DNA from: Scenedesmus sp. PABB004
Taxonomy: Eukaryota
Reading direction: 5' to 3'
Assembly: GCA_014905635.1 (NCBI GenBank)
Contig: JABVCE010000007.1
Span: forward strand, 806,001-870,000
DNA: 64,000 nucleotides
The notes under the pieces were generated by a model. It made no database searches, was not told the origin of the DNA, and saw only the letters and a program-made list of their open reading frames with translations. A program made the translations under genes and the position numbers. Shown in pieces: positions 41,548 to 55,531 of this stretch. Position 1 is the stretch's first letter, and each line of letters starts with the position of its first letter.

Positions 41548-44500
41548 ATGGCCGGCCCGCTGGGCGCCGCGGCGCCCGGCGGCCTGTTCGCGGGCTGCTC
41601 CACGCGCAGCCCCTGCGCGCCCAGCTGCAGCGGGCGTGCGCTCGAGCGACGGCGGCCGCAGCGTCGCCTGCGGGCGGTGCAGACGGGCATCAGCGCCAAT
41701 GCCAGCAGCCTGGCGCCCGCATCTGTGGCCGTGGAGCCCGCCCCCCGCGCCTCGCCCACGGCCAGCTGGAGCGTGGAGGAGTTGGACGAGAGCGCCTTCC
41801 TGTCCACGCCCGCCAGCATGAGCAGCAGCAAGCCGCTGAAGATCAACCTCGACCTGCGCCTGGTGCGGCGCGCAGCGGCGGCGCGCAGCCGGCAGCGGCG
41901 TCGCGCGGGGGCAGCGGTGGCGCGCGGCGCGCGGGTCCCGGGTCCAGAGCGGCGAGGGGCAGCCGCGGGGCGCCGCGGCGCGCGCCGCATGGCGCCGGGC
42001 GCCGCTGGCCGGCAGGGCGGGCTCGCTGCCGCTGCCGCTGCCGGCCGCGCGGCCAGCCGCCCACCGCCGCTCGCCAACCGCCGCCTGCTCACCGCCGCCG
42101 CCGCCGCCGCCGCCGCGCGCAGTACCGCGCGCGGCTGTCGCGCATGCAGGCGGCGCTCGCGACCGACCCGGCGGCGAAGCGCGCGCTGCTGCGCGAGGCG
42201 GAGGCCTCGCTGCGCACGTGCCTCGCGATGGACGCGGCCGACCCGCGCAGCTACGTGGTGCTGGGCAAGCTGCTGGTGCAGCAGAAGCGCTACGACGAGG
42301 CGCGCAAACTCTACGCCGACGGCACCACCGCCACGGGTGCGCGGCGGCGGCGGCGGCGGCGCACGGAGCAGCGGCGGGCAGCGAGCGGGCGGCCGGCCGG
42401 CCGGCCGCCGCGCGCCGCGGGGCCGCGCCCGCTGAACACCCGCGTCGCCGCGCCGCGTCGCGTCGCGTCGCCGCCACAGGCAACACGTCGCCGTACATCT
42501 GGGCGGCCTGGGGGTACCTGGAGAGCCTCGCCGGCAGCGTGAGCCGCGCGCGCAAGCTCTTTGACGCGGCGGTCGTCGTCGACGCCGCCCACGCCGCGGC
42601 GTGGCACAAGTGGGGCATGCTGGAGATGCGGCAGGGCAACTACCTGCGCGCGCGGTGCGGCGGCGCGCGCGGCGCGGCGCGGCGCGGGCGCGGGCGGCGC
42701 GGGCGCGGGCGGCGCGGGCGGCGCGCGCGGCCGTGTGGCTGAGCCTGCTGGCGGCGCGGCCGCCGCGCAGGGACCTGTGGACCACGGGCATCAGCAAGTG
42801 CCGGCGCAGCAGCAGCCGCAGCAACACCTACCTCTACTGCTCCCTCGCGGTCATGGCCGCGGAGCTGGGCAAGCTCAGCGAGGCGCGCGCGTGGTTCCAG
42901 GTGCGGCCGCGGCCGCAGCGGCGGCGCGGCTCGGCTGCCGTGACGGCGGCGCGCGGGGCGCCGCGCGGGGGCCGCCGGCCGCCGACCGCCGGCCGCCGCG
43001 CCGCGCAGGAGGGCACGCGCCTCGCCGAGGGCCGGTCGAGCTGCGCGCTGTGGCACGCGTGGGCGATGACCGAGGCGCGGCTCGGCGACGCGAGCGCTGT
43101 GCGCTACCTGTTCAAGCGCTCGCTCGAGGCCAACCCGCGCAGCCGCTACACGCACCTCGCGTGGGCGATGTGGGAGCGGTCGCAGGGCAACGCGGCCGCG
43201 TGCCTGCAGCTGCTCGTGCGCGGGCAGGGGCTCAACCCCGCCGACCCCGCGATCTACCAGGTGCGGTCCGGCGGCGCGGCGCCGCACGCACGGCGCGGCG
43301 CGGCGCGGCGCGGCGCGGCGCGGCCCGGCGCGGCGACACAGCGCGGCGCAGTGCCTGCGGGCCGACGCCCCAACGCGCCGCCGCCGCCGCGACCGCGACC
43401 GCCGCGGCCGCCAGGCGCGTGGCATCGTCGAGAAGGAGGCGGGGCGCCTCGGCGAGGCGCGCGCCGCGTTCACGGCGGGCCTGACGGTCGACAAGCGCCA
43501 CCTGCACCTCTGGCAGGCGTGGGGCGTGATGGAGTTCCAGGTGCGCCGCCCGCCGCCCGGCGCCGCGGCAGCGGCGCGCGCGCACGGCGCTGCCGCGCGC
43601 TGCTGCGCGCGCGCCGCGCGCCGACGGCGCGCCGGCCCCCGACCCCGCGCCGCGCCCGCGGCGCAGGCGGGCAACTACGACGAGGCGCGGCGCCTCTTCC
43701 AGGAGGGCGTGTGGGCGGACCCGGGCAACCGGGACGTCGTGTACATCTTCCAGGCCTGGGGCGTGCTCGAGCAGCGCGCGGGCAACGCGCCGCTCGCGCG
43801 CGAGCTCTTCAAGGCGGCGCTGAAGGTCGACCCCAAGAACGAGTCCACCTGGGCGACCTGGATCGCGATGGAGGAGGACCTGGGACGCCTCGAGGCCGCG
43901 AACGAGCTCCGCATCCGGCGCAGCGAGCAGCAGTGGGAGTTTGTCATCCCCGCGAGCTTCTCGACGCGCCCCGACGGCGGCGGCGGCGGCGACGGCGGCG
44001 GCGGCGGGGCCGCGGGCGGCGGCCTGCTCGGGTCGCTGCTCGGCACGCTGAACCGCTTCTTCAGCGCGCGCAGCGCCGCCGGCCCCGCCGAGCGCGGCGC
44101 CGGCGGCGCGGCGGGCGCGGAGCGCGCGGGCGGCGCGGGCGCGGGCGCCGGCGCGCTCGGCGCGGCGCTCAACGGCGGCCCCGGCGCGGAGCAGCAGGCG
44201 GCGCTCATGCGCGAGCTGCTGCCGTCGGACTTCAGGGCCGACCTGACGCTGGAGGATATCATCAGCGAGGCCTCGGCGCTGGAGGTCGGCGGCGCGGCGG
44301 GCGGCGCCGCGAGCAGCAGCGGCGGCAGCAGCGGCGGCGACGCGGGCCGCGGCGCGCCGGGCGGCGGCCGCGCGGCAGCAGGCGCTGCCGAGGCGGGCGG
44401 CGGCGGCGCGGCGGCGGCGGCGGCCGGCGGCCAGGAGCAGCCCGGCGCGCCGGCGCCGGCGCCGGCGCCGGAGGCGGGAGCTGCAGCTGCAGCCGCCGCC

Positions 44501-44662
44501 GGCGGCGGCGACGGCGGGCGGCGCGGCCGCGGCCGGCAGCTGTTCCGCAAGCAGCGGCAGCAGGACCGCACGGACCGGGAGATGGGGCTGCAAGCACGGC
44601 CCGCGCGCCCGCCTGCTGCTGGAAAGCAGCAGCAGCAGGAGCAGCAGCAGCAGCAGCACTAG
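41548..44662 (+). CDS. MBB1: HAT/TPR-repeat chloroplast psbB/psbH mRNA maturation factor (Mbb1/HCF107)
   Basis: Transit peptide; [77 protein letters not shown]; further HAT repeats. Confidence 0.9.
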
Positions 44663-44682
44663 GCGGGCGGCGCGGCGTGTGG

Positions 44683-44687
44683 TTACA
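44683..44687 (-). promoter_or_regulatory. Polyadenylation signal TGTAA for the small secreted ORF
   Basis: ttaca on the + strand, about 80 nt downstream of the stop at 44765. Confidence 0.55.
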
Positions 44688-44764
44688 ACCGGAGAGAGAG
44701 AGCAGCCCGAGCGCGCCGCGCCGAGCAGTCGGGTAAGCGAGCGAGCCCCTCGCTCGCGGGGCCT

Positions 44765-45295
44765 TCACGGCCCCTCGCCCAGCAGCTCACCCGCGCCGTC
44801 TGTCGCGTCGCGGCCGCTGCTGCTGCTGTACGACGGCGCCGACGCCGCCAGCCGCGCGGTGGCGCGCAGCCGCGCGCTCGCCGCGCCGCGCACGCTCGAG
44901 CCCGTGCCGCCGCGCCCGACGGCGCGCCCGCCCTCGCGGTCGCCCGGCGTGCGGCGGCCGCCGGTCACGCCGCCGTCGTTGCGATTTACGTTGCGCGTGA
45001 TCGTGCGCGAGCCGTGCTTGGCACCACTGTCCAGCAGGCGCCGCCGCAGCGCAGCGCCGCCCAGCTCCGCCCCGACAGCGCCTCGCTCGCCGCCGCCGCC
45101 GCTGCCGCGCGCCTGCTCGCGCAGGCGCCTGGCCGTGTGCTCCTCACCGGCGGCGCTGGTGGGGACCAGCTCCGGCGACGCGCCCAGCCGTGGCCGCGCT
45201 GGCTGCTGCAGCACCGCGCGGCCGAGCGGCTGCGCCGCTGCCGCGCGGTCGAGCGGCGCCAGGAGCAGCAGGCAGACCGCCAGCGCCACGCCCAT
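44765..45295 (-). CDS. Small intronless secreted orphan protein or peptide precursor
   Basis: ATG at 45295; signal peptide MGVALAVCLLLLAPLDRAAAAQ; RRL and RRRLL sites; downstream TGTAA. Confidence 0.55.
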   Translation of the reverse strand: MGVALAVCLLLLAPLDRAAAAQPLGRAVLQQPARPRLGASPELVPTSAAGEEHTARRLREQARGSGGGGERGAVGAELGGAALRRRLLDSGAKHGSRTITRNVNRNDGGVTGGRRTPGDREGGRAVGRGGTGSSVRGAASARLRATARLAASAPSYSSSSGRDATDGAGELLGEGP

Positions 45296-45691
45296 CACCG
45301 GCGGCGGCGCCTGCAGGTCGAGCGTGCGGCGGCGGGAGGTCGGCGCAGCGCCCCCGCTGGCGCGGAGCAGGTGCGCGGGCTACCAGCGTCCTGCTCCGAG
45401 CCGGGCGCGGCCTGTGGCGTGCGTGACCGAGCACGGCCCAATCGTCCCGTGCCGGGGCGCACCGTCGAAAGGCCCCAGGCTCCGCCGGCTCGTGTTCAGG
45501 CTCCCTACCTGCAACCCGAACTGTCGAGTGGCTCCGCAGGGCTCGCCGCGGTCTGCTGACGCGACGCTGCTCTGGCCCCGCGCGAGCTCTCCTGAGGGCC
45601 GCTGTGCTTCGCGGCTGCGTGTGTCCAGCTCGGAGACTGCGCGGGGCCAGACATCACGGCGCCGGCTACAAGGTCAGCGGCCGCCCGAGTT

Positions 45692-46960
45692 TCAGAGCGC
45701 CGCCGCCGCGTCGGCGGGCTCGCGCGTGAACACGAACGTTCCCGCAGCGCCCGCGCCCGCGGTGGCGCGGCCGATGAGCATGCTGTCGTCGAGGTAGGTC
45801 AGCAGGTACGGCGCCGCGACGCCACGCCCCTCAGCGACCTGCTGCGCGCTCCGGAAGGGGAAGACCACTTTGAACTTTGTCCGTATCCGTATTCGCGGCA
45901 CGAGGCGCGTGCGCGGGGAGTGAGCGAGAGTGGGAGAGGGGGGGCGGTGCGCGGCGGAGCGGCAACCCCCCACGGCGCGCACCTCGCGGAGCGCCAGCAG
46001 CAGCTGCTGCTGGAGCCAGCCGCGCGGCAGCAGCGCCGGCGCGAGCAGCGCCTCAAGCGCGGGGCTGATGCGCACGCGGCCGAGCTGCGCCTCCTCAAAC
46101 GTGAGCGCGATGCGCCGCCCGCTGCGGACCGTGTACCTGCCGCGGCGCGCCGCGGCGCGCGCGCTGCGTCGGCGGCGGCGCGACCAGGGGCGGCGGCCGC
46201 ACGCCGGCGCGGCGCCCGCGCGCATGCAGCGTGCTGCGCGTGCCGCCGCTCACGACGCGCCGACGGTGAAGGTGAGGCCATTCTCCTCCGTCCCCGGCAG
46301 CGTGAACTGGATGATGTTCTCCACGCGCCCCTCGCCCGGCGGCGAGAAGCGCTGGAACACGCCGCCGACGCGCAGCGGCGCGGGCAGGCCGCGCGGGAGG
46401 TGCGGCGCGTCGCCCAGCCCCACGATCGGCACCTGCGGCGCGGCCGGCGGCCGCCGCCGTGAGGCCGGGCGGGCGCGCCGCGCGCGCTTCGGCGGCGCGC
46501 TGGGCGTTGGAGCGCGCTGGGGGCCCCGCGCGCGCTGGGGGACACGCACCACGTCCGCCGCGGTCGTGTACGCGAGGCGCCACGTGCCGGCGAGCAGCTC
46601 GTACTCGAGGTCGCCGACCGCGCACGCCTCGACCGCCACCTGCGCCTCCTCAATCTGCCCCCGCAGCGCCTTGCCCGCCCGCGCGCCGCGCGCCGTGCCG
46701 GCGACCCACGCCAGCAGCGCAGACTTGGCCGCCGCCGCGTCGGGCGGCGCCGCCGGCGCCGGCAGCGCCGCCGCCGCGCGGCAGCGGCAGCGGCGCACCC
46801 GCGCCCGCGCCCGCGCGGGCGCGTGTGGCTGCGGCGCAGGCGGTGCCGCCGCGCCGCGCCCGCCGGCGCGGCAGGTGCTGGGGCGGGCCAGAGCGGCAGT
46901 CCGCCCGCTGCTGGACGCCACGCCGGCGCTGCGAGCAGCGGCGCTGCAGGCCGCGGCCAT
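45692..46960 (-). CDS. Plastid lipid-associated protein (PAP/fibrillin family)
   Basis: Transit peptide; AKSALLAWVAGTARG; LLAGTWRLAYTTAADV; VFQRF; YLLTYLDDSMLIGRA...GTFVFTR; 4 exons. Confidence 0.9.
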
Positions 46961-47227
46961 TTCGGCGCTTCGCCGCCGCTGCCGCTGGTGGGCTCTGGCT
47001 CGTCGGGCTGCGAGCGGACGGGCGGCTAGCCTGAAGAGCGGGAACGGCCTGGCGCGCGCGTGGGGACGACGGGGAGCGCTGAACAAAGCGGCTGAGCCCT
47101 CCAGAGCGACCGACCGGTCGCCTGCTGCAGGGATGGAGCGCTGCTGCCCCTGTCCTCCCAGACCCGGCCTCCACCTCACGCCAGCAGCGATCCGCACCGA
47201 GCGGCGCTCGGCGGCGGCGCCGCAGCG

Positions 47228-48272
47228 ATGGCGCGCCGCGACCATCGCGCGCTCCTGCTGCTGGCCGCGGCGCATGCCGCGCTGGCGCTGAGCAGCCGGG
47301 AGTGCGAGGAGCTGGGGTGCGCTGGCCGCCTGCAGCGGCCGCTGTTGGCCGCCCGCAGCAGCCGCGTCCGCTGCTGCTGCCGGCCGCTGGCCGCTGCAGC
47401 GAGCGAGCGTGCCGCCGCCGCCGTGCCGGCAGGTTCACGGGCCTGCAGAGCTGCTCCGACTGCGAGTCGATGGCAGAGTTCGTCAAGGACGAGGGTGCGG
47501 CCAGGCGGCGGGCGGCCTCACGCAGGCTGCGAGCGCACCGCCGCGCCGCACCCCGGCGCGCGCGCGTCGACGACGGGCGGCGCTGCCGCCCCGCCACCGC
47601 AGAGCTGACCGCCGACTGCAAGCGCTGCTGCGTGGCGGACGCGGACGATGCGGGCGCCAAGTACGTGAGCGCGCGCCTGGAGGTCTGCCCCTACAGACTC
47701 AAGTGCGGCCAGCGGCGGCGGCGGCGGCAGCGCGGGCCGGCGGCCGGCGCGGCGCGGGCCCGCGGCGGCGATGCGCGCCCCGCCCCGCTCACGCCGCGCC
47801 GCCGGCGCCGCCCCGGCCGTGCGCACCGCCGCAGCGGCCTGCCTCACATCAAGGACTTTATCGACAAGCACGCGGCTCGCTACAAGGGGCAGCTCAAGGC
47901 GCGCCCGCTGCGCGAGCTGTGGCCGCCCGACGGCCGCGCGGCGCGCTGGCTCGCCCCGCCGCCCTCGCTCAGCGCCCGCCCGCCTGCCGCCGCCCCCGCT
48001 CAGGTGATCGAGCGCGTCGGCTCGTACCCGACGCTCACGCTGGTCGGCGCCGGCGGCGAGAGGAAATCGGCCCGCGTCGACAACTGGTGCGCCTGCCGCG
48101 CTCCCGCAGCCAGCCCGCGCCGCCCGCGCGGGTCCGCCGGCGCCCGCCGACGCCCGCCGCCCGGCGCCCGCCGCCCGGCGCCCGCTGCAGGCGCGTGCCG
48201 ACGATCCACGAGTTCCTCGCAAAGCTCGAGCCGGCCGCGCCCAAGGCGGCCAAGAAGAAGAAGAAGCAGTGA
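47228..48272 (+). CDS. SELENOF: Selenoprotein F (Sep15) homolog without selenocysteine
   Basis: Signal peptide; ECEELGFTGLQSCSDC; CKRCC (Cys-rich UGGT-binding region); ARLEVCPYRLNGLPHIKDFI; GSYPTLTL; RVDNW..IHEFL. Confidence 0.88.
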
Positions 48273-48537
48273 GAAGGCGCGCCGCCGCGTGGCCCGCCTT
48301 GTGCGTGGGAGTTGAAACCCGGACCGCGCCGCGCCGCCTCGTGGCCCGCCTTGCGTGTGGGCAGCATGCGCTCCCCACTCCCCCCGGCCAGTGCCTGGTG
48401 ACTAGAACCGCTCGTGAGGCCCGCTCGCAGCACGGAACGGCACCAACAAACGGCGACCACACAGGCGCAGACGCAGCGCGCTCGCCGCCGCCCGCAGCGG
48501 CCCACCTCGCCCACGCCCTGCCGCCGGCGGGCGCGGC

Positions 48538-50543
48538 ATGCTGCCGCTGGCAGCGTGCACCGCGGCCGGCGGACGGGCCGGGCCGCTGCGCGCGGCGGCG
48601 GCGCTGGCAGCAGCGGCGGCGAGTGGTGGCGACAGGGCGCGCAGCGTGCACGTCCTGGCCTGGTGAGCAGCGTGTGCGAGTGCCTGAGCTGCTCGGAACG
48701 CCCTAGAAAAGCCTGCAGGGCGCCGCCGCCGTGCGCTGGCGGGCCGCGCCGCTGGCGCGGACGTGCACAAAATCATGCCGTGGCGCCGCCGCGCAGGGGC
48801 CGCAACGCGGAGCTCCAGTGCGCCGTCGAGGGCGGCCTGCCGATAGTGGCGCGCCCGACGCCGGTGCTGGAGCTGCACGGCCTGCCGGTTCTTGGGCTGG
48901 CGGCCGGCCCGCTCAGCTCGGCGGCGGTCGCGGGCGCGGCGGGCGCGTGGACGTGGGGCGACGGCACCGCGGGCGCGCTGGGCCACGGCAGCGCGGGCCG
49001 CGTGGCGGCGCCGTGCCGCGTCGAGGCGCTCGCGGGCGGCCGCGCGGCGGCGCTGCGCGGCGTGTCGCTGGGGCACTCGCACGCCCTCTTCGTTGACGCC
49101 GCGGGCGCGCTCTGGGCGTGCGGCGAGGGCAAAGAGGGGCAGCTGGGCCTCTCGCAGCCGCTGCAGGAGCTCGCGGCGCAGCACCGGCGGGCCTGGGCCG
49201 AGGCGCAGCTGCCCGGCGGGGCGCGGCGGTCGGGCGCGGAGCGCGCCGCGCAGCTGCTCAGGGCGGCGGCGCCCGAGCCGGCAGGCCACGTCGCGCAGGG
49301 CTGGGGAAGCCTGGGGGGCCCCGGCGGCGGTGGCCAGGCGCGGCAGCAGCTCGCGGCGGCGCTGCAGTCCAGCGGCGGCAGCGCCGCGCGGCGCGGCTGG
49401 CCGTCCGCGAGCGGCCTCGGCGGGGGCCTGTTTGGCGGCGGCAGCGGCACCGACCTCGGCATCAGCCTGGGCGCGTGGGGCGGCGGCGCAGACCTGGAAG
49501 CGCACCTGCACGGCGTGGGCCTGCAGCCAGGCCAGTACGGCACGCCCGCGCGCGTCGGCGGCGGCAGCTGCGCCTCGCTGCTGGGCCTCGGAGCGCGCGG
49601 CGGCGGCGGCGGCGCGTCGGCGGCGGCGGCAGAGGGCGAGGAGGCCGGCCTGGGCGCTGAAGTTGTGGTTGACGCCGCGGCTGGCAAGTTTTTCAGCGTT
49701 GCGGCCACCGCCAAGGGCGAGGTGTGGACATTCGGTGAGTGGGCGTCGCCGGGGCCGGCGCGGGCATCGACGGGCGCCGCCCGGCCCGCAGTGCGCCCGC
49801 CTGGCGCGAGCCCGGAAAAGGGCGCGCCGCCGCACGCGCCCTGAGGCCCAGGGCGCGCCGCCCGCCCGTCCGGCGCAGGCGCCGACTTCAACGGCGCGCT
49901 CGGCGGCGGCGACGCGAGCTGGCTGAGCTCGCCGCGCCGCGTGGCGGCGCCCATCGCCGCCGCGCTGGCCGCCGACGGCGGCGCGGTCGCCGTGGCGGCG
50001 GGGGGCACGTTTGCCGCGGCGCGCACCGCGGCGGGGAGCGTGCTGGTGTGGGGCCGGCTCGGGCCCGCGTCGCGGTCCGCGGCGCCGTTTGCGCGCGTCG
50101 CGCTGCCGCGCGGCGTGGCGGTGCGCGGCATGGCCGCAGGGCAGCAGCACCTCCTCATGACTGACGGCGCCCGCGTGTGGGCCGTGGGGCGCTGGCTGGA
50201 CGCGTCGGGCGACGAGGCCGGCGCCGCGTGCGCGTCGGCGCCGCGCGAGCTGCTCGCGCTGCCCGGCGGCGCGGGCGTGGCGCGCGTCGCGGCCGGCGCG
50301 CACGCGAGCGCCGTGGTCACCGACGACGGCGGCCTGTGGCTCTGGGGCCGCCTGCTCGACGAGCAGCACGGCCACGGCCTGCTCCGCCGCGCCGGCGGCG
50401 CCGCCGCGTCCGCGGGAGCCCCCGCGCCCGTGGACTGGCGCTGGGCGGGCTTCGGCGGCGCCGCGCCGCGCCGCGTCGAGGCGCTCGGCGCGGTGCGCGA
50501 CGTCGCGCTCGGGGGGTGGCACGCGCTGGTGCTGACCGACTGA
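48538..50543 (+). CDS. RCC1-repeat (beta-propeller) protein, possibly organelle-targeted
   Basis: VHVLAW|GRNAELQC; WTWGDGTAGALGHG; VSLGHSHALFVD..LWACGEGKEGQLG; AAAGKFFSVA..GEVWTFG; VAAGAHASAVVTDDGGLWLWG; VALGGWHALVL; 3 exons. Confidence 0.88.
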
Positions 50544-51119
50544 CTAGTCGGTCGCTCCCCCCGCGGCGACGGCCGGCGGACGCCGCGCGTGCAGCACTTG
50601 AACCCGGTGCCGGGTGGCCGCGCATGCGCGCTGCGCAGCCTCGGCAGCAGGCGCTGCGCAAGCGCTCGCGGGGCAGGGGAGCGCCAGCGGGTCTCGAGCT
50701 GCAGCGGGCAGTTCATTTCATGTTGATTTCCGGTGCGTGCGTTTGCTGCCGTGTGCGCGCGGCCACGGCCAACCAGTCAACCATTTGCCCCCCGCGTGCT
50801 GTGCTCCCGCGGCGCAGCGCGCGCCGCCGGCCAGCCGCTAATCAAGAGCCCGTCCGCCGCTAATCAAGAGCCCGGCGCACGAGCGCAGCGCCCATAACCG
50901 ACCAGAGCACCGCCAGCGCCACACAGCTCAATGCCTAGGACGAGTGCCTCCCCACGATGGCCGCGCCGCTGCTGCTGCCACGTGGCAGCATTGTGCACAA
51001 TCCAAAGGTCATGCCATGCCGGCGCCGCTGCCCCACCGCTGACTCTGAAAAAGACAGCGCAAGCCCCGGGCGTCGTACGTCAGGCCTGCGCCGCAGACTC
51101 TATCCCGCACCACCGCCGG

Positions 51120-54100
51120 TCAAGGCGTGTTGGTCTCGGGCGCGAGGAGCCCGGAGGCGCCCCACACCGCCTGCGTGGCCTTGGGGTTGAAGTTGGCGGC
51201 GGCGCGGGCGGCGGCGCGCGGCGGCGCGCGGTGAGCTCGCCCGCGCAGGCGGCCGCCGCCCCGCCCGCCACGCCCTGCCGCCACCCGCTGCCCTGCCCAG
51301 GCCCGTGCCTTGGGGTTGAAGTTGGCGTTGCTGTAGTAGCACTTGCCGGGGCACTGCGGCATGCCCGGCGGCACCGTCGCCGCGGCGATGCCCTCGGGGT
51401 CCTCAATGATGGCGATGCCCTGCGCGTGCGAGCGAGGCGCGGGAGAGGCGCGGGGGAGCGGGGAGGCGCAGGGGGAGGGGAGAGCGTGGGCGGGGCGGGG
51501 GCGTGCGTCGCGCGCGCGCCGCCGGCGGGGCGGGCGGCGGCGGGCAGCCGAGGGGTCGTGGCGGCGGCGGGCGCGCCGCACCTGCCCCATCAGCTCGTGC
51601 GCCGCGATGTGGCAGTGCAGCGGCCACACGCCGGTGTTGTCGGCCACAAACCTGCGCGCGCCGCGGCGCGGCGGGGGCCTCCGCGCGGCGCCTGCCAGCG
51701 TCGCCGGCGGCGGGGCGCGGGCGCGCGGGTGCACACCTGATGGCGACCCACGCGGCGGCGTCCTCGGTCGTGCCGTTGAAGAGCACCGTGACCGTGTCGC
51801 GCAGCACGGGTGTGGCCGAGTAGCTGGGGCCGCCGACGAGCTCGGGCGACCACGCGCCCATGCCCATGCCGACCTGCGCGCGGCGGCGGCGCGACGCGGG
51901 TGGGCAACGAGGCCGGCGCGCGCGCGAAAAGCCGTGCGGCGCCTCTGCACCTGCCATGCGTGATGCCCGTGGGTATGGAAGCTATGCTGTTCGCGTCCGT
52001 TGCGCGCGCTGGTGAGGGGCGAGGTCGTGTTGTACTCGCCGCCGTTGGCGCCGGCGCGGAGGTTTTGGATGACGATCTCGACCACCTCGCCGCGCTTGAC
52101 TGGTGGGAGCGGATTGGGGAGGCAGATTTGGGGCGACAGGGTTGGGGGGACAGGCGGGGCGCAGCTCGGGGCGCGGTTGCGCGTTGCCGGCGGCGCGGCG
52201 CGGCGGGCGGACCAACAGCAGCGCCGGTGGTGGGCGCTGCGCTCGGGGCGGCGCGGAGGGGCCGCGGCGTACAGCGGACCGTCCCCGCGCGCACCGGTGA
52301 GGACGTGGGTGCCGGCGCCGGGCTTGAGCTTGACCACGATGTCGGCGTTGGGGCCCGCGGCATCCACGACCTGGCGGTGCCCGCGGCGGCGCCGTCGGCG
52401 TCGCAAACGGCACGGCGCCCCGCCCAAAGGCCCCCTCCCTCCCGCAAACACACTCATGACACGTGACACGCGCGCGCGCACCTGGACCTTCTTGCCCTCG
52501 CCCGTCCAGGTCGCGGCGTCGCCGCCCATCTTGGTGAAGTAGAGCGCCGGGTCGAGGCCCGTGGCCTTGGCGTCCAGCGCGTTGGCGGCCGCCCAGCCGG
52601 GATCGGCGTAGACCTGCACACCACGGCGGCAGCGGACGAGGCGGCGCGCGCGCGCGTGTTGGGCCGCTCGCCGCCGGCGGGCGCGCCGCATGCTGCGCCT
52701 TTCCCCCCTCCGCACACACTGGTGTGTGAGTGTCTAACGCACCAGGTCGAGCAGCGGCTTGCAGGGCGGCGAGACCGCGTGCGCGATGTTGTCAAACGCC
52801 CAGCGCAGCACGCCGTTGGCCTCGACGAGCGGCTGCGTGCTGTAAAGCAGCACGCGCTTGGTCACGGGCCCGCTCGGCAGCGCAAACGACGGCAGCTGCG
52901 CCTTGGGCGCGAGGAACGCGGCGCTCTTGGGCCGCTTGGCCGCGTCGGCGGCGAGCAGCTCGGGGTGCGGGGCAAAGCCCATCATGACGGAGGTGTTCCA
53001 CTTCAGGTCCACCGCGGGGCCTGCCGGCCGTCGGCGGCGGCGGCGGCGGCGGCAGAAGGTGCCGGCAAACACACAGCGGTGAGTCGGTGCGTCGAGAGGG
53101 CGCGGGGGGAGCCGGCGGCGGCGGCGCGTCGCGCCCGGCGGGCGGGCGCGCGGCGGCGCGCACCCGGCTGCAGCGCGGTCACGGGGTTCGGCGGCGTGGT
53201 GCTGCCCTCGTACTGCAGCACGGCGTACGTCGCGGGCGCGCCCTTGCGGTACTGGCTCGCGACGCTGCGCGCGGCGGCGCGTGAGCGCGCGGCGGCGGCG
53301 CGTGAGCGTGCGGCGGCGGCGCGTGAGCGTGGGGCGGCGCGTGAGCGTGGGGCGGCGCGTGAGCGTGGGGCGGCGCGTGAGCGTGGGGCGGTGGTGGTGG
53401 CGGCGGCAGTCGTGGCGGCGTCTGCGCGGCAGCGTGTGCGCGGCAGCGCCTGTGCGGCAGCGCCTGCGCGGCGGCGCCTGGCGCGCGCCTGATCCAGTAG
53501 CGCCCGACGGGCTGGTTGGCCTTGAGCAGCACGTCGACGCGCTGCCCGGTGTTGACGTCGACGCACTGCGAAAAGGTCTTGGGCGCGACCGGCGCGGCGT
53601 CGAGCGCGACGACCGTGACGTCGTGCTTCTCAAAGCACACCTGCGGCGGCGGCGGCGCCGCGGCGCCGTGGGCGGGGCGGCAGCCGCGGGCTGGGCTGGG
53701 TGGCCGAGCGCGCGGCGCCGCGCCGCCGCCCGGCCGGCCCCGCGCCGTCCGGCGGGCCCCGCCCTCGCCCCGCCCCGGCCGGCAGCACGCTCCCGCTGTC
53801 CCGCCGCGGCAGCGCTCTCTCGCCGCCGCGGTGGCATCGTCATCACGCGCACCGTCATGTACAGCAGCATCGCTGCGTTGATGATCCTGAACCGCCGCGT
53901 CGTGCCGGGCTTCACGCTGAACACCTCGCGCCCGGCGCACGTCACGCCGGCTGTGCGTGCGCGAGCGCGCGCCGCGCCGCGGGGCGGGGCGCGCGTCGGC
54001 GGCAGGCGCGCCAGCGGCGGCGGGCGCGCCGGCAGCGGCGGCGACGGGCTGCCGGCGGGGCGCGCCGCCGCGCCGCACCCGGCTTGTACCCGACGCTGCA

Positions 54101-55531
54101 CGCAGGCTGCTCCGCGGTGGGGCCCAGCTGCCCCGCGACGCAGCCATTGGGCGTGAGCAGGTCCTTGGCCGCCGCCTTGTAACCGTCGGTGCGGAATGGC
54201 AGCGTCTCGTTCTCCTGCGCACCCCGGCGCGGCGCGGGCGCGGCGTGGGCCGCCCGCGGGCGCGAGGCTGCCGCGCCGCAGCGCGAGGCCTGCACGCCGC
54301 AGCGCCACGCAGCGCGCCGCAGCGCCACACAGCGCGCCTTGCGCTTGTACACGTCCTCGCACTGGTGGTAGTTGCCCTTGCCGTTGACCAGGAGCGACTT
54401 GGGCAGCCCGATCCAGCACCACGCGCCGCTGCCGTCGCTCGTGGCGCTCGCGTTGATGACCTTGGTCGGGTCAAACGGCCTGTTGAGCCGCATCGCCATG
54501 CTGTTGCCCGTGCTGTGCCACCAGTCCTGCAGGAAGAGCACGCTGGTGCCGTCGGCGGGCGTCAGCGCGGGCACGCTGTCGGGCGTGCGCACGACGAGGG
54601 GGCCCTGCAGGCCGTCCGCGCGGTTCATCTGTTGCGGCGCGCGAGCGACGGCGCGGCGGCGGCGGCGGCAGCGCGTGAGGGCATGGCTGCGCGCGCGGCG
54701 GCGGAGCGCCCCGAGGCCCGGGCGCCGCGGCGCTGGCTGCAGCATGCCCGCTGCTCAGGCGTTGGCCGTTGACCGCCCACCTGCGCGTGGCCGTGCCAGA
54801 AGTACGTCCCAGGCATCTCGTTGACCTGCGGCGCATGGCGCATGGCGCGCGGCGCGTGACACGAAGCACGGGCTCGGGGCGCTGCCGGCGGGGCGCCGCC
54901 AGCGGGGCGCCAGGGCGCCGGGGCGTCGCCGGGGCGCCGCGGTGCGCCGCGGTGCGCCGGCGCGGGGGGCGCGCCTGGAACTTGTAGGTGAACGACGCGC
55001 CGCGCGCGATGGGGCACTGGCTGACGTAGCGCGTGCCGTCCATCCAGGGGTGGCCGCGCATGCCAAAGCCGTGCCAGTGGATGGTGATGCCGCTGCTGAT
55101 CGAGGGCCAGTCGGCCGGCAGGTTGTTCTTGACCGTCATCTGCGGCGGGCGGCGGCCGGCCGCGGGGGCCGGGCGTCGCGCGCGCCGCGCGCGCCGCCGG
55201 GCGGTGGGCCGGCGCGGGCGCGCGCGGCGTGGCGCGGCGCGGCGCGTGGTGGGCGCACGCACCGCGACCCACTCGCCCTGCACGAGCGTGATCTGCGGCT
55301 GGAACTCCCCATTGACGAGGACGACCTTCCGGCTCACGCAGTCGGGCGCGAGCGTGCCCGCGGTGACGTCCATGGAGAGCTGGCGCGGGCTCGCCTCCGT
55401 GCCGGCGCCCGCGGCCTTCTGGTCCGCCGCGGCGAGGCCCCGGCCGCCGGCGGAGGCGCCGCGCGGGCCGCGAGCGCGCAGGCGAGCGCGAGCGCCGCCG
55501 CCAGCAGCGGTCCGGCACGGGCGGGGGCCAT
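51120..55531 (-). CDS. Secreted three-domain multicopper oxidase (ascorbate oxidase/laccase-like)
   Basis: Signal peptide; TIHWHG..PWMDGT.YVSQCPI; GTYFWHGH; LQDWWH; HSFHTHGH; ADNTGVWPLHCHIAAHELMGQG. Confidence 0.95.
53272..53391 (-). repeat. Intronic minisatellite (six 18-21-nt units, each containing CTCAC)
   Basis: gcggcgcgtgagcgtggg repeated on the + strand. Confidence 0.9.

What the first reader, a model, noticed from the sequence alone, without database searches (positions are those of the whole stretch)
51178..51327. Multicopper-oxidase intron whose 3' end duplicates the preceding exon end (candidate intron birth or splice-site rebuild)
Seen: the 21-mer gccttggggttgaagttggcg occurs at 51178-51198 and 51307-51327, 129 nt apart. 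On the coding strand the same AAG|GC junction acts as a GC donor in one copy (51308) and as the AG acceptor in the other (51180). A CTCAC branch-like motif lies ~50 nt upstream of the acceptor with no intervening AG. The 129-nt segment is in frame and stop-free, so the unspliced product reads ANFNPK...ANFNPK. Known: duplication of an AG|GY proto-splice site and insertion with flanking direct repeats are proposed intron-gain mechanisms that are seldom seen with intact repeats. Inference: a recent gain, or replacement of an old acceptor, made possible by tolerance of GC donors.
Basis: partly seen in the sequence, partly recalled or inferred. Interest (0 to 1): 0.75.

Follow-up and report, generated by a model that had tools for sequence, protein, structure and literature searches.

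The report
Young intron with duplicated insertion site
A green alga's copper-oxidase gene carries an intron that its sister gene copy and its relatives lack, and the intron is still flanked by a perfect copy of the spot where it sits, which makes it a rare, fresh footprint of how a new intron can appear.

Summary
The 21-nt repeat is real and not chance. A contig from an independent freshwater metagenome, about 4% diverged, carries the second copy plus the intron's 3' end, so it is not a misassembly. A duplicate of this gene region elsewhere in the genome (about 8% diverged) has the exon uninterrupted while sharing the four neighbouring introns, and 17 of 17 short last-exon ORFs of relatives read straight through. 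Best reading: a recent intron gain by insertion of about 108 nt at a staggered cut that duplicated an AAG|GC site (0.55). Rival: an existing intron whose 3' end was overwritten from spliced RNA/cDNA, lost in the duplicate (0.3), because the insert looks like a complete intron lacking only its AG. It is a singleton: 1 of 1,323 predicted introns, no Introner family, no source found. Not shown: splicing itself. AAG acceptors are rare here (8 of 1,337), and an in-frame CAG 9 nt downstream scores better. All three outcomes keep the frame. The scan's earlier notes held no such case. New member of a known kind.

The parts
51307..51327 (-). Repeat copy 1: last 19 nt of the upstream exon plus the GC of the donor
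   Evidence: donor scores at the 27th percentile of predicted GC donors
51178..51198 (-). Repeat copy 2: last 19 nt of the intron (ending AAG) plus the first 2 nt of the last exon
   Evidence: also in metagenome contig X1 record 2 with one third-position change at 51183
51199..51306 (-). 108-nt insert between the repeats: G-rich 5' half, branch motif, C/G tail; no source found in the genome
51180..51308 (-). Candidate intron, 129 nt, GC...AAG (precise splicing; restores the ancestral protein)
   Evidence: matches the public model P0005 and the gap against the C18 duplicate; no RNA evidence
51171..51308 (-). Alternative intron, 138 nt, GC...CAG (would drop Ala-Thr-Gln, 3 residues)
   Evidence: chosen by the self-trained gene model; scores 5.8 nats above the AAG path
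51231..51235 (-). CTCAC branch-point-like motif
   Evidence: commonest branch-like motif near predicted acceptors (263 of 427 motif hits)
51309..51419 (-). Upstream exon (first part of the ancestral last exon)
51120..51179 (-). Last exon with stop codon; encodes most of a confidently predicted C-terminal helix (residues 724-734 of P0005)
   Evidence: 5 synonymous and 0 non-synonymous listed changes in X1
51120..55373 (-). Host gene: three-domain multicopper oxidase, ascorbate-oxidase-like, 15 introns counting this one
43474..52332 (.). Segment duplicated at G000:C18:16353-32561, which supplies the intron-free comparison

Best explanation
A recent spliceosomal intron gain. In the ancestral, uninterrupted last exon the two DNA strands were cut about 15-21 nt apart around an AAG|GC site, about 108 nt of GC-rich sequence was put into the gap, and fill-in duplicated the stretch between the cuts. 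Copy 1 supplies the GC donor (GC donors are 21% of introns here), the insert supplies donor positions +3 to +5 and a branch motif, and copy 2 supplies the first AG after the branch. Splicing there restores the old mRNA exactly; use of the CAG 9 nt on costs 3 residues; retention loops out 43 residues but leaves the C-terminal helix whole because the repeat re-supplies its start. Since every outcome is in frame the allele could survive while its splice sites were weak. Shown: the repeat, absence in the duplicate, presence in a wild relative, singleton status. Inferred: polarity (gain), splicing, and the enzyme. Within this reading I put end-joining capture of a DNA fragment at about 0.38 and LINE-type target-primed insertion of an RNA copy at about 0.17.
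For: Duplicate region on C18: 8,317 aligned bases at 7-8% substitutions, and the 129 nt is the only intron-sized clean indel inside an exon among the 6 indels of 25 nt or more; the four other introns in the shared part of the gene are kept. C18 copy was under purifying selection (pN/pS 0.18 over 174 codons), so it is not a processed retrocopy. 6 of 6 60-aa ORFs and 11 of 11 short ORFs of relatives read the last exon without a break; P0033, P0034, P0036 and P0041 begin with intron-like read-through, so are genomic calls by inference. X1 is sister to the window (22 differences in 543 sites, against 45 and 50 to C18) and has the intron end, which brackets the event between the 8% and 4% splits. 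Both window copies have the same Phe codon, which differs in C18. Splice signals are weak, as for a young intron (best spliced path only 3.7 nats above retention, 5th-10th percentile of 369 comparable introns). Flanking direct repeats on new introns are described for Daphnia, Drosophila and Aspergillus (PMC3020277, PMC4202315, passages). The genome holds APE-endonuclease/RT LINEs with copies about 99% alike.
Against: The insert looks like a whole intron minus its AG: its last 12 nt score at the 81st percentile of predicted acceptors, reached by 2.5% of interior and 4.9% of post-branch 12-mers against 17% of real acceptors, and the branch A would sit 36-39 nt from such an end (median 37). No source was found although the event is young. 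The intron is the 3'-most one, the class most exposed to cDNA-mediated loss (recalled), so loss in C18 is plausible. Outgroup absence rests on ORF calls, not on DNA: two metagenome scans returned nothing. Intron positions differ between this gene and the relatives at other sites too, so distant absence says little about close ancestors. X1 is one contig of depth 4.6 that does not reach copy 1 or the donor.
Confidence: 0.55

Rival explanations
1. Acceptor scar on an intron that was already there. A break near the 3' end of an ordinary GC-AG intron was repaired from the gene's own spliced transcript or cDNA; copying ran 14-17 nt past the junction into the upstream exon and then rejoined the intron tail at a short CGC match: an aborted intron loss. 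The C18 copy lost the intron altogether, either from cDNA or by collapse between the two repeats.
For: Insert has the length, branch spacing and acceptor-like tail of a complete intron; short matches exist at both joints; no source is expected for an old intron and none was found; it is the last intron; reverse transcriptases are present. Repair from spliced RNA that deletes whole introns is described in human cells (PMC12065846, passages), and microhomology between splice sites can delete introns (PMC3020277, passages).
Against: Needs at least three events at one site (earlier gain, scar, loss in C18) where the best reading needs one; no other intron differs between the duplicates; 17 of 17 ORFs of relatives lack the intron, including P0038, the best-scoring relative of the last exon. 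A local polymerase-theta templated insertion fits poorly: such templates lie within 30-50 bp and tracts rarely exceed 10 bp (PMC7165422, passages), here 110-130 bp and 14-17 nt.
Confidence: 0.3
2. The segment is mostly not spliced: an in-frame 43-codon insertion tolerated in the C-terminal tail, not yet an intron.
For: Open frame; the 9-nt deletion in X1 keeps the frame; the one change in copy 2 in X1 would be synonymous; retention scores 2.1 nats above the AAG path in my model; AAG acceptor at the 0.5th percentile.
Against: The insert alone is 16.6 nats more intron-like than coding in frame; it has donor, branch motif and an AG-free tail; open frames are the rule for 3n introns here; a 9-nt slip in a GCC-type tail and one third-position change are weak evidence; the CAG path beats retention.
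Confidence: 0.1
3. Classical tandem duplication of a 129-nt exon segment whose middle later diverged.
For: Duplicated AG|GY sites are an experimentally supported route to new introns (PMC3443670, passages).
Against: Outside the 21 nt the unit is only 25-29% identical to either flank while the repeat itself is perfect and the event is younger than 8% divergence.
Confidence: 0.03
4. Assembly or polishing artefact, for example spliced reads overwriting the intron end.
For: Exactly this pattern would result; raw reads of this genome could not be examined.
Against: An independent, 4%-diverged metagenome contig runs from the 3' UTR through copy 2 into the intron tail and branch motif, 631 of 631 letters placed; only 1 of 1,323 predicted introns shows the pattern.
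Confidence: 0.02

Closest known systems
New introns from repair of staggered double-strand breaks (Daphnia pulex neointrons; PMC4202315 section 19 and passages; PMC3020277 and PMC3443670 passages)
   Same: Singleton recent intron, insert of unknown source, direct repeat overlapping both splice sites, weak splice signals.
   Different: The repeat is 21 nt (15 at least, if the matches at the joints are discounted); the Daphnia repeats catalogued in that section are 4-17 nt. GC donor, GC-rich rather than AT-rich insert, chlorophyte host, insert resembles a complete intron.
Introners that recruit splice sites from their target-site duplication (PMC9860276, PMC12130899, passages)
   Same: Splice sites come wholly or partly from the duplicated target; codons can be lost or kept on splicing.
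   Different: No family of copies, no terminal inverted repeat seen, duplication far longer than the 3-9 bp given for DNA-transposon Introners.
Intron gain by tandem genomic duplication of an AGGT/AGGC site (PMC3443670, passages)
   Same: One AG|GY site used as donor in one copy and acceptor in the other.
   Different: Only 21 of 129 nt are duplicated; the rest is unrelated to the exon.
cDNA- or RNA-templated intron loss (whole intron deletion; PMC12065846, PMC3020277, passages)
   Same: Exon-exon junction sequence standing in genomic DNA at the 3'-most intron; intron-free sister copy.
   Different: Here the intron's 5' part and branch motif remain, so it would be an aborted event; the terms 'partial' and 'incomplete' do not occur in PMC12065846.

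Membership tests
Recently gained spliceosomal intron | Absent at the same position in paralogs and outgroups | tested here: met
   C18 duplicate at DNA level; 17 of 17 short ORFs of relatives at protein level; outgroup DNA not obtained
Recently gained spliceosomal intron | Real genomic sequence, not an artefact | tested here: met
   X1 record 2 covers 50597-51246; copy 1 and the donor are not covered
Recently gained spliceosomal intron | Removed from mRNA | not testable with these tools
   No RNA holder listed; P0005 splices it but also retains another clear intron, 54337-54215
Recently gained spliceosomal intron | Donor, branch and acceptor signals of the host genome | tested here: inconclusive
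   Donor 27th percentile of GC donors, branch motif present, AAG acceptor 0.5th percentile, downstream CAG 23rd percentile
Break-repair (staggered DSB) intron gain | Direct repeat at both ends above the background of old introns | tested here: met
   21 nt; junction-aligned repeats reach at most 12 nt in the predicted introns, offset matches 18 and 16 nt in two low-complexity cases
Break-repair (staggered DSB) intron gain | Identifiable captured fragment | tested here: not met
   Best genome hit 76% (C6 intron), best score among 1,322 predicted introns 80 within a null of 38-107; most Daphnia new introns also lack a source (PMC4202315)
Introner | Family of similar introns at many loci | tested here: not met
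   One DNA search and four pattern searches of G000; none of the 25 loci inspected or 12 extends along the insert. The DNA search skips common words, so a diverged copy could be missed
Introner | Short (3-9 bp) target duplication and/or terminal inverted repeats | tested here: not met
   Duplication 21 nt; no end-to-end inverted repeat among the 25 longest listed for the region
LINE-mediated (target-primed) insertion | Active APE/RT element in the genome | tested here: met
   32 of 33 RVT_1 matches over the cut-off; Exo_endo_phos plus RVT_1 in one frame; copies 98-99% alike
LINE-mediated (target-primed) insertion | Target duplication of matching length and 3' tail or microhomology | tested here: inconclusive
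   21 nt is at the upper end of L1 duplications (7-20 nt, recalled); no poly(A); 3-4 nt match between tail and repeat start; host LINE duplications could not be measured because the three copies examined sit in nested arrays
Tandem genomic duplication | Whole intron resembles adjacent exon sequence | tested here: not met
   25-29% identity outside the repeat
Three-domain multicopper oxidase (ascorbate-oxidase-like) | Cu-oxidase_3, Cu-oxidase and Cu-oxidase_2 domains with histidine motifs | tested here: met
   All three Pfam domains over cut-off; best solved relative ascorbate oxidase 1aoz, E 7e-52; substrate not tested

The most novel reading that the evidence does not exclude
The insert is a copy of an excised, debranched intron RNA that a LINE reverse transcriptase wrote into an exon: priming at the short match just before the RNA's terminal AG, running off exactly at its GC donor, and leaving a 21-nt target duplication that supplied the missing acceptor. 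That would be intron transposition by target-primed reverse transcription, with no Introner element. It explains in one event the complete-intron anatomy, the L1-sized duplication and the absence in the duplicate; its weak point is that the source intron was not found. My search for this combination of terms listed one paper, on Micromonas Introners, seen as listing only.
Probability: 0.17. Interest if true: 0.8.

Novelty: new member of a known kind. Interest (0 to 1): 0.47.

Why it matters
Where new introns come from is still open for genomes without Introner families, because most new introns have lost their footprints. Here the footprint is intact and long, the before state (the duplicate gene) lies in the same genome, a wild relative brackets the date, and three in-frame outcomes show how a weakly spliced newcomer can be tolerated. 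One RT-PCR and a few related genomes would separate intron birth from aborted intron loss; either would be a clear case in a chlorophyte. It remains a single event of a described class, not a new system.

Tried and rejected
No RNA holder listed, so no test of splicing. Two metagenome scans for outgroup DNA, by alignment and by a degenerate motif, gave no loci. First own-genome protein search and two translations were in the wrong frame and were repeated. Source hunt: the C6 intron (G000:C6:75400-75163) shares a 23-nt stretch at the branch motif and a G-rich start but is 76% alike, on a continuum with other hits; three copies of a repeated region on C67 share the first 17 nt and then diverge, which chance can give; both rejected as sources. 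Direct-repeat scan of 521,502 bases: 31 repeats passed the filters, 26 were non-tandem, 12 were read in detail and none other was an exon-end/intron-end pair. Target duplications of the host LINE could not be measured. The 7.5-kb C18 insertion gave no RT or transposase hit in the 5 frames scanned. Parts of the region without X1 cover (including copy 1) say nothing. Literature searches for green-algal cases listed none describing such an intron; these cover only the held open-access library, and supplements were not read. Earlier scan notes: nothing for this genome, one unrelated note by words.

Full report
Observation. The two 21-mers are identical and 129 nt apart, with no third match at up to 2 mismatches and a chance expectation of 0.01. 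On the minus strand the same AAG|GC junction appears at 51309|51308 and at 51180|51179. A CTCAC lies at 51235-51231 with no AG between it and the AAG. The host is a three-domain multicopper oxidase whose best solved relative is ascorbate oxidase; its named relatives are chlorophyte green algae such as Tetradesmus obliquus (about 62% identical). A public protein, P0005, corresponds to this gene and splices 51308-51180, but it also keeps a 123-nt intron that homologs lack and that folds as disorder, so it is not evidence from RNA.

Not an artefact. The one run found, X1 (freshwater metagenome, contigs), gave a 631-nt contig placed end to end on 50597-51246: 3' UTR, last exon, copy 2, intron tail and branch motif, with 26 other letters and a 9-nt deletion in the tail. 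It is a single contig of depth 4.6 and does not reach copy 1.

Polarity and age. Window 43474-52332 is duplicated at G000:C18:16353-32561. Over 8,317 aligned bases substitutions run at 7-8%; of 6 indels of 25 nt or more, only the 129 nt is an intron-sized clean gap in an exon, and the four other introns of the shared gene half are kept. The C18 exon reads straight through and shows pN/pS 0.18. These are the only two copies of this exon in the genome. Over 543 shared sites the window differs from X1 at 22, from C18 at 45, and X1 from C18 at 50, so X1 and the window are sisters and share the intron. Among relatives, 6 of 6 60-residue ORFs and 11 of 11 short ORFs cover the last exon unbroken; four start with intron-like read-through, which marks them as calls on genomic DNA (inference). 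I could not fetch their DNA. Parsimony gives one gain between the 8% and 4% splits; C18 could also be an introgressed relative rather than a duplicate, which leaves the argument unchanged.

How unusual. I trained a simple gene model on 71 blocks of 10 kb (one overlapping), seeded with this gene's other introns, and obtained 1,323 distinct predicted introns; these are predictions, and the acceptor matrix is self-trained. GC donors are 279 of 1,337, CAG acceptors 1,299 and AAG 8. Junction-aligned repeats reach at most 12 nt; allowing an offset, this intron scores 21 and the next two, both low-complexity, 18 and 16. An independent repeat scan of 521,502 bases found no second case. The open frame is uninformative: 369 of 462 introns of length 3n are stop-free.

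Which acceptor. The model picks the CAG ending at 51171, not the AAG: path scores are -336.9 (CAG), -340.6 (retained) and -342.7 (AAG). For the AAG: AG is six-fold depleted in the 15 nt before acceptors, 327 of 364 introns with a branch motif end at the first AG after it, the spacing of this motif is the same in 21 of 22 homologs matched by pattern (the miss, P0034, has a substituted residue at the same spacing), the three residues lie in a confident helix, 724-734, and X1's change in the Ala codon is synonymous. Competition of a near CAG with an upstream AAG is known (recalled). Mixed use is likely. All outcomes are in frame: unchanged, minus 3 or plus 43 residues, and in the last the repeat re-supplies the start of the helix.

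The insert. No source was found by DNA search, four pattern searches or alignment to 1,322 predicted introns (best 80, null 38-107). Its composition is within the intron range but at the low end (8th-9th percentile on two measures); 18% of random 108-nt windows are as intron-like and 1% have a donor-like start plus a branch motif, so capture followed by selection is possible. But its end is acceptor-like (81st percentile) at the median branch distance, so it reads as a whole intron lacking only AG. There are short matches at both joints (GC at the donor, CGC at the tail), so the true duplication is 15-21 nt.

Mechanism. Best: insertion at a staggered cut with target duplication (0.55), by end-joining capture as proposed for Daphnia and Drosophila (PMC4202315 section 19 and passages; PMC3020277 and PMC3443670 passages) or by LINE-type target-primed copying of an RNA; the genome has near-identical APE/RT elements. 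Main rival: an aborted, RNA- or cDNA-templated loss that overwrote the acceptor of an existing intron, with complete loss in C18 (0.3; compare PMC12065846, passages). Local polymerase-theta templating fits less well (PMC7165422, passages). Retention (0.1), tandem duplication (0.03) and artefact (0.02) follow. It is not an Introner (no family; duplication longer than the 3-9 bp in PMC9860276, passages; PMC12130899, passages). PMC12124190 was seen in passages only and added nothing. Supplements were not read and may list longer repeats among published new introns.

Verdict. A real, young, singleton intron of a described class with an unusually long intact footprint and its before state in the same genome. 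Searches listed no description of such a case in a chlorophyte within the held library. Novelty: new member of a known kind. Interest 0.47; 0.8 if the RNA route were shown.

Noticed in passing
window 55531-55373 (-): A signal-peptide-like ORF starts at 55531 but is out of frame with the oxidase ORF at 55373 (158 nt apart); a one-base assembly error or a real frameshift.
   Followed up: no
window 51951-52000 (-) and L016:4212-4260: The exon with the third copper motif differs at 20 of 149 nt between the window and C18, against 3-6% in other exons; the changes cluster at the histidine motif, where both copies use T-ending codons unusual for this genome, and the window's motif departs from the family consensus. 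Possibly a separate conversion or repair tract.
   Followed up: partly
G000:C18:31533-32561 (L016): The C18 oxidase is only the 3' half, joined directly below a glutamine-rich coding stretch of another gene; no second 5' half was found, yet pN/pS is 0.18, so truncation is probably recent.
   Followed up: partly
G000:C18:22628-30157 (L118): A 7.5-kb insertion interrupts the C18 copy of the neighbouring RCC1-repeat gene; it has no clear target duplication and holds an ephrin-receptor-like cysteine-rich frame.
   Followed up: partly
window 54337-54215 (-): A 123-nt GC-AG intron is left unspliced in the public model P0005; homologs lack the 41 residues and the fold is disordered there.
   Followed up: yes
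window 51582-51584 (-), residue 688 of P0005: The position that is the axial methionine of the type 1 copper in plant ascorbate oxidase (numbering recalled) is glutamine here and in most algal homologs aligned.
   Followed up: no
window 51120-51198, run X1: All 6 listed substitutions in this 79-nt stretch are third-position and synonymous, a much higher density than in the adjacent 3' UTR (17 in about 520 nt); unexplained.
   Followed up: partly
whole sample of G000: About 21% of predicted introns have GC donors, mostly preceded by AG, far above the roughly 1% usual in animals and land plants (recalled).
   Followed up: partly
L104, L105, L106 (G000:C67 about 1.02-1.06 Mb): A region of at least several hundred bases is present three times within 40 kb, in both orientations.
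   Followed up: no
L129-L134 (G000:C1, C3, C31): APE/RT LINE copies 98-99% alike lie in nested arrays beside a 172-bp tandem satellite.
   Followed up: partly
window 53271-53390 (-): The intron 53488-53265 holds a tandem array of an 18-21 nt unit, each copy carrying a CTCAC branch-like motif.
   Followed up: no
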